From a virus: DNA of 64,000 nt. The stretch lies in the IMG/VR virus record IMGVR_UViG_3300050501_000322, one strand, 5' to 3'. This document shows positions 2,337 to 31,372 of the stretch, in pieces (position 1 is the first letter of the stretch; every line of letters starts with the position of its first letter). The notes beneath the pieces are model-generated. The model did not search any database. It had not been told where the DNA came from and saw only the letters and a program-made list of their open reading frames with translations. Position numbers and translations under genes: made by a program.

Positions 2337-2525
2337 GTGGCCCACCCTGAAGACGGCCGGCGCCCCGGCGACTCGTGTCGCCACAATAAGACCTTGGATA
2401 CCGGTTACTCGCACGGGATGCTCAAGTGGCGGTGTGGGTGCGGGCTCGAGTGGCTATCGGTTGCAGAGCCGGGGCAGGCGCCGCGGACGAGTCTCTTGTT
2501 TCCGAATCAGGGGAAGAAAAAATGA
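2337..2525 (+). CDS. small Cys/His hypothetical protein (62 aa)
   Basis: GTG 2337 fills the gap between coupled genes; CRH...WRCGCG. Confidence 0.4.
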   Translation: MAHPEDGRRPGDSCRHNKTLDTGYSHGMLKWRCGCGLEWLSVAEPGQAPRTSLLFPNQGKKK

Positions 2526-3796
2526 GTGAGCTACGCAAGGCAATCGAGGCCGCCGAGGAGTGGCGCAACGATCCGAACCGTCTCGGACTACCGATCGAAG
2601 AAGTCTGCGGCCTGATAGCCGCAGCCGAAGCCGCCGAGCAAGCCCTGCAAGCCGAACGCCTCCGCCGCGTCGACCCCGAGCGGCACGAGCAAGTCAGGAC
2701 GGAGCTGGCGGAGACGTCGCGGGCCCTGCAAGCCGAGAAAGAACTGCGATCACATGCTGTGCGAACAGGCATCGCGCTTGCGAAAGAACTGGAGGCGCTG
2801 CGGAAGGTGGAGCAGGCGGCGCGGGAGATGTACCGCACATGGATGGAACGCGCGGCGCTGGATTGGACCGACCTGCTGCAAGCCCTCGCTGCAGCCCGCG
2901 CCACCCGGGGGCAGACCGACCCTCCTGGTGTTGGAGACACGATCGACGGCGCTAGCGTCGAGGTAGTCGAAAACGTCGTAAGCATCTCGGTTACCGGTCA
3001 AAGACTTGTGCCAGCGGCCCGTTCGGAGGCAACTCCGATCGACGGCACTCACTCCGGGAGAGCGGGCCTGCAACCCCGTAGTGCGTCACGGCTCGACGTA
3101 GGCGACCCAACCGCAGGGGACTGTGAGCCGCGCGGTGACAGCCGGGAGAGACCGGCACTTTCCGAGCCCCAGCCCACCCCGCAGCCGGACGCGGGGGCTG
3201 ACCGCTGCGCACGGTTCAACGACACGACTGGCGCGCTCACCTGGAACTACCAAAGCGCAAGCCTGCACCCGGATCGTTGCAAGTGTCAGGGAAACGAAAC
3301 CACGCCACACAAGCACTACGCCTATCCGCCGTACGCATGCGCGCGGTGCTCAGACTGCAAGGCATACGAGCCCGCTGTCGCCGCCTCCCACCGGGCAGCG
3401 GAAGGCGCGGTGGGTGATCCGCTGGTCGTCACGAGGTCCGGGGCCGGCGTGCATGTCCTAGCGGACTGCCTAATCGAGATCGGCCAGCTTCGCGAGATGC
3501 TGCGAAAGGCAGAGGCGGATGCCGTTTACCACTCTGGACAGCGGCAGAAGCTGCACGAGGAGCTGAAAGCTGCCGAGGCGCACCTCTTGGCCTGGGCCGG
3601 GGTGGCGCGTGAGAAACAAGCCAGGATTCAAGCGGCCGAAGCGGAGCGGGATGAGCTTCGCGCGAAGCTCTTCACCACAGAAACCCATTTGCTGGCCTAC
3701 TGGATAGGCCGACCCAGCTTCGAAACTGCAGAGCTCGCAAGAACCATCTTCGAAAATCGAGAAAGAGGAGTATCGAATGACCAAAAAGATCGATGA
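2522..3796 (+). CDS. coiled-coil hypothetical protein with a Cys-rich patch
   Basis: ATG 2522 overlaps the upstream stop; heptad-rich ends; CARCSDC in the middle. Confidence 0.55.
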   Translation: MSELRKAIEAAEEWRNDPNRLGLPIEEVCGLIAAAEAAEQALQAERLRRVDPERHEQVRTELAETSRALQAEKELRSHAVRTGIALAKELEALRKVEQAAREMYRTWMERAALDWTDLLQALAAARATRGQTDPPGVGDTIDGASVEVVENVVSISVTGQRLVPAARSEATPIDGTHSGRAGLQPRSASRLDVGDPTAGDCEPRGDSRERPALSEPQPTPQPDAGADRCARFNDTTGALTWNYQSASLHPDRCKCQGNETTPHKHYAYPPYACARCSDCKAYEPAVAASHRAAEGAVGDPLVVTRSGAGVHVLADCLIEIGQLREMLRKAEADAVYHSGQRQKLHEELKAAEAHLLAWAGVAREKQARIQAAEAERDELRAKLFTTETHLLAYWIGRPSFETAELARTIFENRERGVSNDQKDR

Positions 3797-4457
3797 CCGT
3801 TTCAGCCCGGCCCGACTCTACGACCGCTATCGCGTCACCATCTCCGTTCGCGACCGCATCTGCGGCGGGATGCCCAAGAACCCGGACCTGATCAAGAACT
3901 GGGTCGAGGCGACGACCGGCTACGCCGACGAGATCTCAGAGAAGCTCGTCCAGGAGAACGCCGAGCTCGTCGTCAATGAAGTCGCGGAGAAGTGCTGGAA
4001 CGGGTTTCCGGAAGACCCTGTGCGTGGCCTCTTCGTGCCGTGCCGAAACATCAAGGCATGCTTGAAGCAGTCAGCGCAACTCCTCGGCATCTACAAGCAA
4101 AAACGCGGCTCGAAGCAGATCATGGCCGAAGGCATGGAGGTGAAGGGTCAAGAGCTCGACGGACGCACCGATCGCGTTTACTTGCAGGGCAAGAAACAGC
4201 CCGACGGTACCGACGAGAGCGCGATCCATGTGATGACCGCGCAAGGACCGCGGACAGCTTTGAGAAGAATGGACTACGTCACGCAGCCGACGCTCTCGTT
4301 CGAGATCTGGGTCCTGAAGACCGCCGCGCAAGAGACCAGGCACATCGGCGAAGAGCAGCTCGTCGAGATTCTGACACACGCCCAGGAGAACGGCCTTGGA
4401 GCTTCAAGGAGCCAAGGCGAAGGCAAATTTTCAGTCGTCGAGTTTCAGAAGATCTGA
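3777..4457 (+). CDS. stand-alone Cas7-like RAMP (RRM-fold) protein
   Basis: SD AGAGGAG; N-terminal strand YRVTISVRDRICGG, LFVPCRNIKACLKQSA (RAMP IPxxxxKG-like helix), C-terminal Gly-rich loop NGLGASRSQGEGKF; no other cas gene in the window. Confidence 0.8.
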   Translation: MTKKIDDRFSPARLYDRYRVTISVRDRICGGMPKNPDLIKNWVEATTGYADEISEKLVQENAELVVNEVAEKCWNGFPEDPVRGLFVPCRNIKACLKQSAQLLGIYKQKRGSKQIMAEGMEVKGQELDGRTDRVYLQGKKQPDGTDESAIHVMTAQGPRTALRRMDYVTQPTLSFEIWVLKTAAQETRHIGEEQLVEILTHAQENGLGASRSQGEGKFSVVEFQKI

Positions 4458-5074
4458 CCGAAGCGACACTCCGAGTCGGCGCCTTCCAACGCGACTACCC
4501 ATCCCGAGCCGCGACCTTCCGAGTTCCTTCCGAATCGACAAGCCACTCCTCGCCCACCCCAAACTGCGCGACCTACCAACTCGCGGCCGCGCCCATGACC
4601 AATCCCGAGCCGCGACCTTCCAGCGCGACACTCCGAATCTAACCCCGCCAACGCGACGTTCCGTAACCGATCGTTCCAACGCGACTACCCACGCCGCGTC
4701 AAGCCAACCCAACGCGACGAGACTGTCCGAGTTCCTTCCGACGCGACGAACCGAGCCACGACCATTTCCACCCATCACGACCTACCAACTCGGCCCTGCA
4801 CGAAGCGACAAGCCACTCCTCGTCCACCCCAAACTGCACGACGTACCAGACCTTTTCTCTCCTACGCGACAAACCGGGTCGTTCCGAACCAACGCGACGT
4901 TCCGTAACCGATCGTTCCAACGCGACGTTCCGTAACCGACCAACGCGACACGCCCCCTACCTGCGCGACACGCTACGCCGTTCCGTCCCCAAGCACGAGC
5001 CGGCGCGACGATACTGTCCGGGCCACTCCCATTCCTACTTCTACGCGACATTCCAGGCCTAACCAACCCAAACC
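4458..5074 (+). repeat. pentamer-periodic array: (NNN-CC)n-NNN-GCGAC units of mostly 23-33 nt; candidate guide-RNA array
   Basis: About 22 (G/A/T)CGAC delimiters (e.g. 4463, 4491, 4568, 4653, 4681, 4714, 4805, 4866, 4894, 4922, 4945, 5045) separated by 5-nt blocks ending in CC/TC/AC; spans RAMP stop to the next ATG. Confidence 0.9.
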
Positions 5075-5728
5075 ATGACCACCCCTCCCGCCCTGCACTC
5101 GAGCACCACCCAGGAACACCTCACTCCCGCCGACGTCGTCGAAGCAGGGCGCGCGACGCTCGGCGGGTTTGACCTCGACCCAGCCACGACACCGTTCGCG
5201 AACGAGCTCGTCCAGGCGACCAAGATCTACACGCGCGCCGACGACGGCCTGGTCCAGCCCTGGCACGGCCGCGTGTTCCTGAACCCGCCGGGAGGCTCGC
5301 TCGACGAGGTCGTCTGCGGCACGCGTTCGAACCAGGCGCTCTGGTGGGGGCGCCTGGCGAGCGCCTGGGCGTCCGGCGAGGTCGAAGCGGCCATCTTCGT
5401 CGGCTTCTCCCTCGAGCTCCTGCAGGCCGCCCAGAGCCTCGTTCCGGCCGTCCCACAGCCGCTCGACTTCCCGGTCTGCATCCCGAAGAAGCGCATCAAG
5501 TTCGACGTGCTGGCCGACGACCTCCTCGCCCGGCTCCGGGCCGAGTATGAGACCATCCCGGCCGGCAAAGTCGACCGGCTCGCGAGGATGACCAACCAGA
5601 TGGTTCGCCTCGAGCAGCTCCGGGGCCAGCGAGTCTCTGGCGACCAGCCGACGCATGGGAACATCATCGTCGGCGTGGGCGTCCGCGATCTGTCGGCGTT
5701 CAACGAAATTGGTTACGTTCGCTATTGA
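5075..5728 (+). CDS. phage N6-adenine DNA methyltransferase (Dam-like family)
   Basis: FDLDPA (motif I-like), DDGLVQPWHGRVFLNPPG (motif IV-like). Confidence 0.8.
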   Translation: MTTPPALHSSTTQEHLTPADVVEAGRATLGGFDLDPATTPFANELVQATKIYTRADDGLVQPWHGRVFLNPPGGSLDEVVCGTRSNQALWWGRLASAWASGEVEAAIFVGFSLELLQAAQSLVPAVPQPLDFPVCIPKKRIKFDVLADDLLARLRAEYETIPAGKVDRLARMTNQMVRLEQLRGQRVSGDQPTHGNIIVGVGVRDLSAFNEIGYVRY

Positions 5729-6206
5729 ACGCAAACGACCGGCCGAACGGCCGAACGGGCGCTTCGCCTAACAAGTCGCCTAACAATAACGCGCTGCATT
5801 ATGAAAATAAACCCCAAAATGATCGTTTTTCTGCGGTGCATTATGAAAAATAATTCTGTGCGTCAATTTGAGACGCAACGCGCTAATTCGGGAGGTCAAA
5901 ACAAGAAACATTCGGCCGGCTCATCAAAAAATATTTGTTTGGTGATTTGTTAGTTACTTATGTATTTGATATTCTTTATTTATTCTACATAGTCTAATAA
6001 ATAACATGAAATTTGATAAAAAATAGAAAGGGTAGATAAAATAGATAGATGTAGGATATTTTAGTTTTTAGATGTAAGTATTTATCCTACAGTTTGACAT
6101 GTACGGGGGGGACCTAGTATAAGTAGTGGATCGACTGACCCCTCTTCCCCCCAAATCGTTGAATAAATACCTGGAGGCCAGAAAGCTTGACTAACTGAAC
6201 GGGGGC
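5729..6206. other. AT-rich non-coding region, candidate replication origin
   Basis: Only strongly AT-rich tract in a GC-rich genome; TGCATTATGAAAA at 5795 and 5837; inverted repeat TGTAGGATA (6050-6058) / TATCCTACA (6083-6091); directly upstream of the primase-helicase. Confidence 0.6.
6094..6123 (+). promoter_or_regulatory. sigma70-like promoter for the replication operon
   Basis: TTGACA (6094-6099), 18 nt, TATAAG (6118-6123). Confidence 0.5.
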
Positions 6207-29893: not shown

Positions 29894-31372
29894 GTGGCTA
29901 GACGTATGCCGCCGAGAAACAAGAAGGGCCGTTTCATGAAGCGCGGATCGAAGCGTCGTCGGCGCCGAGGACGGAATCCAGTCGCCGTGGCGGCCACTCC
30001 CGCTGCTCGCCAGCCGAACCGCGCGCGCCGTCGCCGCCGCAAGCGCCGGAAGAATCCGGTCGCGGCCGCTCCCGCCGTCGCCCATCGCAGGACGAACCGC
30101 GTTCGTGCGCGTCGTTCAGCTCCGCGTCGCCGTCGTCGCCGGAAGAATCCGGTAACGCTCCGGGCGAACGCCGTTCGCCGGTCGCGTCGTACTGGTCGTT
30201 TCACCAGAGGCAAAGAGCGCCGTCGTCGTCGGCGCGGCAAGGTCTCGACTCGCTCGAGTCAATCGGGAGCGCGCCGAGTCGGCGCTCGTCGTCGAAACAC
30301 TCGATACAAGAGCGTGAGCGGCTACCGCCGCAAGGGTCGAGTTCGAGGACATCGCCGCCGAGTGAATCCCGTCGGTCTCGGCGGACTGATGAAGAATCAG
30401 TTCAGCCGAACCCGTCTCGCCGAGTACGGCGTAGGCGTCCTCGGTATCGGCATCGGCGTTACCGTTGCCGACCTCGTCGATCGTTGGGTTGCCACGATGC
30501 CGCCTGAGGGCGGCTCGAATCCGTGGTTCGGCCGTAATGCCGCCGCTGCGTACCAGCGTCGTCCGGACATCATGCGGTTCGGAGCTCAGGGCCTCGGCGC
30601 TCTGATCTCGATGGTCCTCACGTACGCGACCAGGAACATGAAGGGTCTGCCGTGGTTCTTCGGCGGTCTCGCCGGAGGCTTCGGCGTCAACATCGTCCAG
30701 CAGGGACTCCGCTGGTACGTGATGCCGATGCTCTTGAAGAGCGATAACCCGAACGAGGCGGTTCTCGCGAATCGCTTGTACCCGCTCGAGCAGAAGGTCG
30801 TTCAGGACCCGGTTGCAGCAGCGTTCGAAAGCTTGACTGGTCAGCTCGGTGCCGCGCAGGCGGCCGGTGTTCCGGTCTCGATCAGTCCGCTCGCTTCAGC
30901 GCCTCCGCCTGGCGGCGTCTACTCACTCGGCAAGCAAGGCAACGGTCAGCGTTACTTGATTCCGACCGGCAAGCTCGGCATGTGCGAGAGCTGTGGCGGC
31001 AACGGTGGCTGCTACAACGACTGCCCCGACTACAACTGTGATGGTTGTGGCAAGGGCGAGGCCGAGTACGAGATGGAGCACGGAGACGACATGGGCACGA
31101 TGATGGCGGAAGCCGGCGTCGCACCCGCAGTCGTCTACGGCCTGAACCAAGGCAGGACCTCCTTCGCCAAGGGCGAGATGGTGCGCGTGCCCCACGCGCT
31201 CGGTCGCTACCTCGTTCGGCGCGACGCCGAGAGGCAGCGGCTCGCCGGAGTTCCTCACGGCACTCCGAACCGCATCATCGACGAAGATGACGAGCACTTC
31301 GCGAACGGAAAGCACTTCAGCGCCGGCAACGACGCTGCCATGTCGCTCATGATGGACTCGGTCGCCGAGTAA
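29894..31372 (+). CDS. Arg-rich 'RxNP' putative core protein with membrane segments, Cys cluster and LysM-like C-terminus
   Basis: SD GAGGAG then GTG 29894; poly-Arg blocks ending GRNP/RKNP/RVNP; hydrophobic segments; CESC...C...C...CDGC; YEMEHGDD...VYGLN...KGEMVRVP. Confidence 0.65.
   Translation: MARRMPPRNKKGRFMKRGSKRRRRRGRNPVAVAATPAARQPNRARRRRRKRRKNPVAAAPAVAHRRTNRVRARRSAPRRRRRRKNPVTLRANAVRRSRRTGRFTRGKERRRRRRGKVSTRSSQSGARRVGARRRNTRYKSVSGYRRKGRVRGHRRRVNPVGLGGLMKNQFSRTRLAEYGVGVLGIGIGVTVADLVDRWVATMPPEGGSNPWFGRNAAAAYQRRPDIMRFGAQGLGALISMVLTYATRNMKGLPWFFGGLAGGFGVNIVQQGLRWYVMPMLLKSDNPNEAVLANRLYPLEQKVVQDPVAAAFESLTGQLGAAQAAGVPVSISPLASAPPPGGVYSLGKQGNGQRYLIPTGKLGMCESCGGNGGCYNDCPDYNCDGCGKGEAEYEMEHGDDMGTMMAEAGVAPAVVYGLNQGRTSFAKGEMVRVPHALGRYLVRRDAERQRLAGVPHGTPNRIIDEDDEHFANGKHFSAGNDAAMSLMMDSVAE

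What the first reader, a model, noticed from the sequence alone, without database searches (positions are those of the whole stretch)
3777..5074. Solitary Cas7-like RAMP plus a pentamer-coded repeat array: candidate non-CRISPR RNA-guided system
Seen: a 226-aa protein with RAMP hallmarks (IPxxxxK-like helix; G-loop GLGASRSQGEGKF) is followed, from the base after its stop, by 617 bp that parse into 5-nt blocks of three variable bases plus CC (sometimes TC or AC). Blocks are grouped mostly 3-5 at a time and closed by NNN-GCGAC, e.g. gta.cc aga.cc ttt.tc tct.cc tac.gcgac (4843-4870) and aaa.cc ggg.tc gtt.cc gaa.cc aac.gcgac (4871-4898). There is no repeat-spacer alternation and no cas1/2/5/6/8 in the window. 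Known: Cas7-family RAMPs polymerise on RNA with a fixed footprint per subunit. Inference: each unit is a processed guide; each CC is a protein-bound register mark and the triplets spell a gapped DNA or RNA target, probably in rival viruses or host defence genes. From memory, unverified here, phage RAMP + GGY-NN pentamer RNAs with a non-contiguous code (VIPR-type) have been reported. This array differs: C-rich on the gene strand, three variable positions, and a CGAC delimiter. It may be a new code variant.
Basis: partly seen in the sequence, partly recalled or inferred. Interest (0 to 1): 0.95.

Follow-up and report, generated by a model that had tools for sequence, protein, structure and literature searches.

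The report
Phage VIPR system with cytosine-phased guide array
A roughly 74-kb soil phage carries a lone Cas7-like protein gene followed by a 617-base array of five-base repeats, which makes it a member of the VIPR RNA-guided DNA-silencing systems described in 2026 preprints, with an unusual array layout whose transcribed strand is still open.

Summary
ORF 3777-4457 (226 aa) is followed from base 4458 by 617 bp with a strict 5-nt rhythm. The lag-5 cytosine autocorrelation is 0.315 (z 7.6), GCGAC occurs 18 times against 3.1 expected, and AACGCGAC 7 times against 0.16.

The protein folds confidently (pLDDT 88) as a single-RRM RAMP. All five AlphaFold DB entries that the VIPR preprint names as its founding Vipr proteins rank in its top six fold matches; Cas7 and Csm3 follow.

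Eighteen of 21 independent homologous loci, including cultured Microcystis phage Mae-JY09, carry the same kind of array beside the gene. The array is always C-phased on the coding strand. Its flanks are conserved and its interior is hypervariable.

So this is a VIPR system, a known kind. This scan has already noted about 60 VIPR-type findings on other DNA.

It differs from the characterised SUSP1 type in these ways:
- Polarity is inverted (CC, not GG, on the gene strand).
- Each pentamer has three variable bases.
- Guides are short units of 5k+3 nt closed by (AAY)GCGAC.
- There is no structured tail and no accessory gene.

The preprint's methods already mention NNNGG repeats and staggered arrays.

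I found no targets under any gapped rule, and the transcribed strand could not be tested. I favour the sense strand, about 65:35.

The parts
3777..4457 (+). vipr gene: 226-aa single-RRM RAMP with beta1 at 15-24, helix-1 at 89-102, a thumb hairpin at 144-169 and a G-loop at E204-K217
   Evidence: AF2 model has pLDDT 88 and pTM 0.81. AlphaFold DB cluster ranks 1, 2, 4, 5 and 6 are the five Vipr seed entries named in the preprint. PDB matches are type VII Cas7, Csm3 and Cmr at E about 4e-8. PADLOC gives Csm4 at E 7e-6 over residues 140-225. There are 180+ close homologues and 1419 cluster representatives.
4458..5074 (+). vrRNA array: 23 CGAC-closed units plus a trailer. Unit grammar is (NNN[C>T,A]C)k + AAY-GC-GAC. 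It is written here on the C-rich strand; the transcribed or bound strand is not determined.
   Evidence: No Rfam family matches. Neither strand is more structured than its shuffles.
4843..4898 (+).
   Evidence: Unit 4843 recurs in the 90%-identical relative with exactly one pentamer missing (L027 3109).
4540..4572 (+). 33-nt unit, duplicated at 4810-4842. All six triplets are identical and the only two changes fall at pentamer position 4.
4658..4685 (+). 28-nt unit repeated exactly at 4899-4926, with a truncated third copy at 4927-4949
5050..5086 (+). Conserved array trailer. It keeps the pentamer phase, runs into the first codons of the next ORF, and is identical in a relative whose downstream gene is different.
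5075..5728 (+). Dam-like DNA methyltransferase ORF. It starts with no spacer and no Shine-Dalgarno sequence after the array. It is not part of the system in relatives.
   Evidence: phrog_111 at 3.9e-14 and Pfam Dam below threshold. Not conserved next to vipr in other loci.
2426..3796 (+). Upstream ORF of unknown function that overlaps the vipr start by 20 nt. It is not a conserved accessory (vap) gene.
   Evidence: No Pfam, PHROG, PADLOC or NCBIfam hit. No homologue next to vipr in 16 other loci.

Best explanation
This is a VIPR (Viral Interference Programmable Repeat) system in the replication module of a roughly 74-kb uncultured soil phage. It consists of one Vipr-family RAMP gene and, abutting it, its guide-RNA (vrRNA) array.

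Shown here:
- The protein has the Vipr/Cas7 fold.
- The array has two fixed and three variable positions per 5 nt.
- The gene and the array travel together across a large phage family.
- Array interiors turn over quickly, in whole units and 5-nt steps, between conserved flanks.

Inferred by analogy with the SUSP1 system:
- The array RNA is cut at or near each (AAY)GCGAC into guides of 3-8 pentamers.
- One Vipr protomer binds each pentamer through the fixed dinucleotide and exposes the variable bases.
- The filament pairs with double-stranded DNA of competing mobile elements in a gapped register, most plausibly three paired bases plus one skipped target base, and blocks their transcription.

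My own inference, at about 65%: the functional RNA is the sense, C-rich strand, 5'-(NNNYC)k-AACGCGAC-3', co-transcribed with vipr. The antisense NNNGG strand is the alternative.
For: Fold: all five AlphaFold DB entries that the preprint lists as Vipr rank in the top six Foldseek matches, with E from 2.6e-13 to 4e-7. Cas7, Csm3 and Cmr chains follow in the PDB search.

Linkage: a 5-nt-phased array abuts the gene in the window and in 18 of 21 independent homologous loci, at 27-90% identity. These include isolated Microcystis phage Mae-JY09 and four distant cluster representatives.

Shared grammar: units are 5k+3 nt long and end in CGAC in all clades.

Hypervariability:
- A relative with a 90%-identical protein has the same start and trailer but almost entirely different units.
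- L002 and L004 differ only by a 210-nt (42 x 5) indel.
- L010 and L011 keep their flanks and replace the inner units.
- Of 159 regular units, few are shared between different phages.

No self-targets were found, as the preprint also reports for its systems.

For the sense strand:
- Nearly all long ORFs in the 64-kb window are on the + strand.
- The array fills the whole gap between two + strand ORFs.
- In upstream-array loci the last pentamer ends about 16 nt before the vipr start codon, so the vipr mRNA must contain the C-rich strand.
- In SUSP1 the experimentally defined vrRNAs lie on the vipr coding strand.
- On the sense strand the conserved element is 3' of the repeats and the last pentamer base is the invariant one, as in published vrRNAs.
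- SUSP1's G-contacting residues D177, W178 and R179 have no counterpart in this family's shorter G-loop, by my manual comparison.
Against:
- No target was found. Two local scans were at control level, using nine gapped rules in the first and four in the second. Six exact 3+1 scans covering five units gave 0 hits: five in IMG/VR and one in species genomes. A seventh, in the metagenome collection, is uninformative because that collection failed its positive control. The single 3+0 hit is at chance level with no convergence of other guides.
- Profile comparison with SUSP1 Vipr is not significant, so membership rests on fold and context.
- All published vrRNA motifs accessible to me are written with G, which favours the antisense NNNGG reading.
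- There is no conserved accessory gene and no structured tail.
- A 28-nt unit carries only about 12 variable bases, which is low specificity.
Confidence: 0.85

Rival explanations
1. It is the same VIPR system, but the guides are transcribed antisense to vipr and read 5'-GUCGCGUU-(G[G/A/U]NNN)k-3'. That would be the NNNGG-type vrRNA of the preprint with an 8-nt 5' handle, reminiscent of class 1 crRNA tags.
For: The preprint says all seven VIPR types use GGY/NN or a related consensus and lists NNNGG, YNNNG and NNNNG. The SUSP1 structure shows dedicated guanine pockets. The reverse complement of the array fits G-G/D-N-N-N. In some relatives the array lies between convergent genes, so antisense read-through is possible.
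Against: It needs a dedicated antisense promoter in a genome transcribed almost wholly on one strand, and no promoter-like site was found on either strand near three arrays. In upstream-array loci such a promoter would have to lie inside vipr. Polarity would then be opposite to SUSP1 in every one of about 18 loci. The invariant base would be G1 rather than G2. SUSP1's guanine-binding residues are not conserved.
Confidence: 0.3
2. The tract acts at another level than as guides. It could be a set of DNA iterons or protein-binding sites near the replication genes, or a C-rich untranslated leader (a Rho-loading or regulatory region) that Vipr merely coats to regulate itself.
For: It sits in the replication module next to a primase, helicase, polymerase and methyltransferase. 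A 617-nt C-rich, G-poor, unstructured RNA is what a Rho loading site looks like (established knowledge). No targets were found.
Against: The tract follows vipr, not the replication genes, across unrelated neighbourhoods. Three of every five positions are hypervariable while the phase is strictly kept, which neither iterons nor a Rho loading site require. The published homologous systems are proven guides.
Confidence: 0.06
3. It is low-complexity sequence or a chance pattern, or a translated proline/threonine-rich ORF.
For: An ORF caller placed a 179-aa ORF across part of it.
Against: A period of 5 is incompatible with coding. The z-score is 7.6 against shuffles. The same grammar recurs in about 18 independent loci.
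Confidence: 0.01

Closest known systems
VIPR type II system of Escherichia phage SUSP1 (Vipr + vap1 + vrRNAs; bioRxiv 10.64898/2026.04.26.720920 and .720927)
   Same: It is phage-encoded. It has a lone small RAMP with an RRM core, thumb and G-loop. Arrays of 5-nt repeats with fixed and hypervariable positions lie directly up- or downstream of the gene. There is no CRISPR array, and array polarity is fixed relative to the gene.
   Different: - SUSP1 has GGY fixed plus NN variable on the coding strand. Here (Y)C is fixed plus NNN variable, C-rich on the coding strand.
- SUSP1 vrRNAs have 9-16 repeats and a structured pseudoknot tail of about 40 nt. Here units have 3-8 repeats closed by 8 nt (AACGCGAC), back to back.
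- SUSP1 has vap1. Here there is no conserved neighbour.
- The proteins are not alignable by profile comparison.
Other VIPR types in the same preprint: NNNGG / YNNNG / NNNNG repeats and 'staggered' arrays (methods and fig. S17-S18 legends)
   Same: There are two fixed and three variable positions per pentamer if read on the G-rich strand. Units abut with no spacer, so the end of one marks the start of the next.
   Different: I could not see the figures or tables (no supplements are held). Which type this clade belongs to, and which strand the authors assign, is therefore unknown. By the preprint's own text, staggered arrays were not among the architectures confirmed by small-RNA sequencing.
Non-canonical VIPR arrays found by a genomic language model (bioRxiv 10.64898/2026.10.21.760802)
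   Same: They are period-5 arrays beside Vipr-like folds with motifs other than GGY/NN. The GAC/NN motif listed there is what a distant relative of this protein carries (L035), and GCGAC, the delimiter here, is itself an NN-GAC pentamer.
   Different: The text lists GAC/NN, CAC/NN, WGT/NN and TGH/NN, all fixed trinucleotide plus NN. It does not list an NNNCC/NNNGG unit punctuated by GCGAC.
Class 1 CRISPR backbone subunits (Cas7 of type VII, Csm3, Cmr4)
   Same: The fold is shared (PDB Foldseek E about 4e-8 to 1e-6). The presumed mode is one subunit per fixed RNA step, with a thumb breaking the duplex.
   Different: Identity is only 10-16%. The protein has a single RRM. There are no partner Cas proteins, no repeat-spacer array and no adaptation genes. 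The RNA step is 5 nt rather than 6.

Membership tests
VIPR | Vipr protein: a minimal RAMP with an RRM core, thumb and glycine-rich loop, related to the founding AlphaFold DB entries | tested here: met
   The model has pLDDT 88. The five seed entries rank 1, 2, 4, 5 and 6. G-loop residues E204, N205, G206, G208, R211, S212, G214, G216 and K217 are invariant in 42 sequences.
VIPR | A tandem 5-nt repeat tract with conserved and hypervariable positions lies beside vipr | tested here: met
   The lag-5 z-score is 7.6. Positions 4-5 are fixed and positions 1-3 are variable. The tract is linked to the gene in 18 of 21 homologous loci.
VIPR | The repeat motif is GGY/NN or a listed variant (NNNGG, YNNNG, NNNNG) on the RNA strand | tested here: inconclusive
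   It fits G-[G/A/T]-NNN only on the strand antisense to vipr. On the sense strand it is NNN-[C/T/A]-C. The RNA strand is unknown.
VIPR | It is mainly encoded by phages or proviruses, outside CRISPR loci | tested here: met
   The contig is about 74 kb with ThyX, primase, helicase, polymerase and exonuclease genes. Homologues occur in IMG/VR contigs and a cultured cyanophage, and none in 185,579 species genomes. There is no CRISPR array.
VIPR | An accessory vap gene is typical of the locus | tested here: not met
   No gene other than vipr is shared across 17 loci. The preprint says 'typically', so this does not exclude membership.
VIPR | [quoted passage not shown] | tested here: inconclusive
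   The only conserved element is AACGCGAC (8 nt, no structure). It is 3' of the repeats only on the sense strand.
VIPR | vrRNAs are expressed and bound by Vipr as a filament | not testable with these tools
VIPR | Guides match DNA of competing elements in a gapped register (1-nt skip) | tested here: inconclusive
   Nothing rose above controls locally. The exact-match 3+1 scans found no hit in IMG/VR or the species genomes. Mismatches could not be allowed, and 2-nt rules could not be tested at collection scale.
Class 1 CRISPR-Cas (Cas7/Csm3) | A repeat-spacer array plus a multi-subunit cas operon | tested here: not met
   There are no CRISPR-like repeats in 64 kb. The neighbours are not cas genes. 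The rest of the window was not scanned exhaustively.

The most novel reading that the evidence does not exclude
This large Vipr clade (about 1400 cluster representatives) uses sense-strand, cytosine-anchored guides, 5'-(NNN-Y-C)k-AACGCGAC-3'. That would be the letter-complement of the published GG-anchored code. Each protomer would present three bases rather than two, and the guides would be very short (12-21 informative nt), tail-less and made back to back from one transcript that also serves as the mRNA leader or trailer. If so, the RAMP pocket has switched base specificity and the pairing rule (probably 3 + 1 skip) differs from the published 2 + 1.
Probability: 0.35. Interest if true: 0.6.

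Novelty: new member of a known kind. Interest (0 to 1): 0.4.

Why it matters
The system confirms that VIPR reaches into GC-rich soil phages and a cultured cyanophage. The clade is large: 844 cluster representatives at E <= 1e-10.

It also gives a concrete, testable contrast with the one characterised type. The fold and 5-nt step are the same, but array polarity is opposite, each step has three free bases, and short guides are punctuated by an 8-nt mark.

If the sense strand is the guide, the family would show how a RAMP filament can be re-tuned to a different anchor base and a denser code. That is relevant to engineering minimal programmable DNA binders.

If the antisense strand is the guide, this is an ordinary NNNGG or staggered VIPR array.

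Tried and rejected
1. Sequence-only annotation. Pfam, PHROGs and NCBIfam gave nothing for the protein. A PDB profile search gave only a 0.47 E-value Cas7 fragment.

2. Self-targeting. Nine gapped rules (three or two read bases, skip 0-2) applied to 14 window units against the other 63 kb gave the same result as shuffled controls.

3. Targeting of relatives. 118 units from 13 arrays against 191 kb of window plus loci, with skip 0-3, showed no excess.

4. Exact collection scans.
- Rule 3+1: five units in IMG/VR and one in the species genomes gave 0 hits. One metagenome scan also gave 0.
- Rule 3+0: one hit in a 48.7%-GC tail gene. About 1-2 hits are expected by chance by my rough estimate of collection size, and no other guide converges there, so I rejected it.
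- Rule 3+2: only the array's own contig matched, which serves as a positive control for IMG/VR.
- The same control failed in the metagenome collection, so that collection does not hold this phage and its negatives carry little weight.

5. Codon-phase signal in the triplets was weak (p 0.01-0.09) and not used.

6. Promoter and terminator scans around three arrays were uninformative.

7. RNA folding showed neither strand more structured than its shuffles, and Rfam gave no match.

8. Profile comparison with SUSP1 Vipr was not significant.

No whole genome is held for this window.
Full report
**The observation**

ORF 3777-4457 encodes 226 aa. The next ATG-initiated ORF starts at 5075. The 617 bp between them are 43% C.

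Cytosine autocorrelation peaks at lag 5 (0.315) and lag 10 (0.191). Against 1000 dinucleotide-preserving shuffles these are z 7.6 and 4.7. GCGAC occurs 18 times (3.1 expected) and AACGCGAC 7 times (0.16 expected), against three copies per strand in the other 63 kb. No other part of the window shows comparable phasing; one window at 6001 was marginal at 0.23.

Cutting after CGAC gives 23 units and a trailer. Eleven units have length 5k+3 (28, 33 or 13 nt). In these, pentamer position 5 is C in 44/44 blocks, position 4 is C>T>A, and positions 1-3 are near uniform. The last eight bases are usually AACGCGAC. The remaining units are irregular. Some units are duplicated inside the array (4540/4810 and 4658/4899).

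**The protein**

No Pfam, PHROG or NCBIfam model matches it. PADLOC gives a weak Csm4 hit at 7e-6 over residues 140-225.

It has more than 180 close homologues, and a profile finds 1419 cluster representatives (844 at E <= 1e-10). A 42-sequence alignment shows the G-loop, E-N-G-x-G-x-x-R-S-x-G-x-G-K, as the most conserved stretch.

The AlphaFold2 model (pLDDT 88, pTM 0.81) has an RRM core, a helical insert, a long beta-hairpin thumb and the G-loop. Against AlphaFold DB clusters, ranks 1, 2, 4, 5 and 6 are A0A2D6XG06, A0A1F4YLN4, X1U2U4, A0A0F9A1L0 and A0A661D0E2. These are exactly the five entries the VIPR preprint names as its founding Vipr proteins. PDB matches are type VII Cas7, Csm3 and Cmr subunits.

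**What is published**

VIPR systems (bioRxiv 10.64898/2026.04.26.720920) pair a phage-encoded Vipr RAMP with vrRNAs made of GGY/NN pentamers. One protomer binds each repeat, and the NN bases pair with double-stranded DNA while skipping every third target base. The natural targets are competing phages and satellites.

The methods mention alternative NNNGG, YNNNG and NNNNG repeats. The text mentions staggered arrays, which were not among the architectures confirmed by small-RNA sequencing. A later preprint reports 21 clusters with other non-canonical pentamers. This scan has already logged about 60 VIPR-type findings on other DNA.

**Linkage across relatives**

Relatives came from IMG/VR, Microcystis phage Mae-JY09, metagenome contigs of a 90%-identical relative, and four distant representatives. 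Eighteen of 21 independent loci carry a 5-nt-phased array directly up- or downstream of the gene, sometimes on both sides. The array is always C-phased on the coding strand, and its units end in CGAC. One distant locus uses NN-GAC pentamers instead.

Unit lengths are 23, 28, 33, 38 or 43 nt, and 159 regular units were parsed. No neighbouring gene is conserved, so there is no vap gene. No homologue lies in 185,579 species genomes.

**Array dynamics**

- Four other assemblies of the window's phage carry an identical array.
- The 90% relative keeps the first bases and the trailer, which continues into the first codons of two different downstream genes. Nearly all its units are different. One shared unit differs by exactly one pentamer.
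- L002 and L004 differ only by a 210-nt indel, which is 42 pentamers.
- L010 and L011 keep their flanks and replace the interior units.

**Which strand**

In SUSP1 the YNNGG repeats lie on the vipr coding strand. Here the coding strand carries CC.

I favour the sense strand, about 65:35, for these reasons:
- The window is transcribed almost entirely on the + strand.
- The array leaves no room for promoters on either side.
- In upstream-array loci the last pentamer is about 16 nt from the start codon, so the vipr mRNA must contain the C-rich RNA.
- On the sense strand the conserved 8-mer is 3' of the repeats and the last pentamer base is the invariant one. Both match the layout of published vrRNAs.
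- SUSP1's guanine-contacting D177, W178 and R179 have no counterpart in this family's shorter G-loop, where invariant R211 and S212 lie. This rests on my manual alignment.

Against the sense strand, every published motif I could read is written with G. No RNA data could be obtained.

**Targets**

Local gapped searches gave nothing beyond shuffled controls. They covered the window's own units under nine rules, and 118 family units against 191 kb under four rules.

Exact scans of the public collections under the 3+1 rule gave no hit for five units. A contiguous (3+0) reading gave one chance-level hit with no convergence of other guides. A 3+2 pattern recovered only its own array. That validated the IMG/VR scan, while the same control failed in the metagenome collection.

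Mismatch-tolerant searches and two-base rules were beyond these tools. The code and the targets therefore remain unknown.

**Verdict**

This is a genuine VIPR system and a further member of a kind described in 2026 preprints. It belongs to a large phage clade with a distinctive punctuated, C-phased array. The only potentially new element is that the guides may be sense-strand and cytosine-anchored, with three read bases per step. That needs RNA data.

Noticed in passing
L035:1508-1785: A distant Vipr relative (profile E about 1e-33) has an array of NN-GAC pentamers on its coding strand. This matches the 'GAC/NN' non-canonical motif listed in bioRxiv 10.64898/2026.10.21.760802. The GCGAC delimiter of the window's array is itself such a pentamer, which hints that the punctuation mark derives from, or is read like, a second repeat flavour.
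   Followed up: partly
L016:3715-4120 (Microcystis phage Mae-JY09, PP395641, 38460-38865): A cultured cyanophage with a known host carries a 28%-identical Vipr, annotated as hypothetical, and an unannotated NNNCC/CGAC array at the right end of its genome. It is a tractable system for testing strand, processing and targets.
   Followed up: partly
window 5050-5086; L027:3491-3527: The array trailer and the first four codons (M-T-T-P) are identical in two phages whose downstream ORFs then diverge completely, into a methyltransferase in one and a 63-aa ORF in the other. The ORF start has no Shine-Dalgarno sequence and sits in a CA-rich leader.
   Followed up: partly
window 1-64000: Almost every long ORF is on the + strand. 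The contig (about 73.9 kb) appears in several rhizosphere assemblies with different start points, which suggests a complete, circularly permuted phage genome. It carries ThyX, DUF1653, a primase/DUF5906 ATPase, an exonuclease, a helicase and a DNA polymerase. Most structural genes have no PHROG match.
   Followed up: partly
window 6106-6159: There is a sub-threshold Rfam match to a retroviral frameshift element (blv_FSE, 29.7 bits against a gathering score of 34) in the AT-rich gap before the primase gene. It is probably chance.
   Followed up: no
L036:1195-1216: A perfect 8-bp hairpin with a 6-nt loop sits between the end of an upstream array and the vipr ribosome-binding site in one distant locus. 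It could be a processing or stability element.
   Followed up: no
window 30032-30153: Two 29-nt direct repeats lie 93 nt apart, ending in CGCCGGAAGAATCCGGT, inside a coding region. Their meaning is unknown.
   Followed up: no
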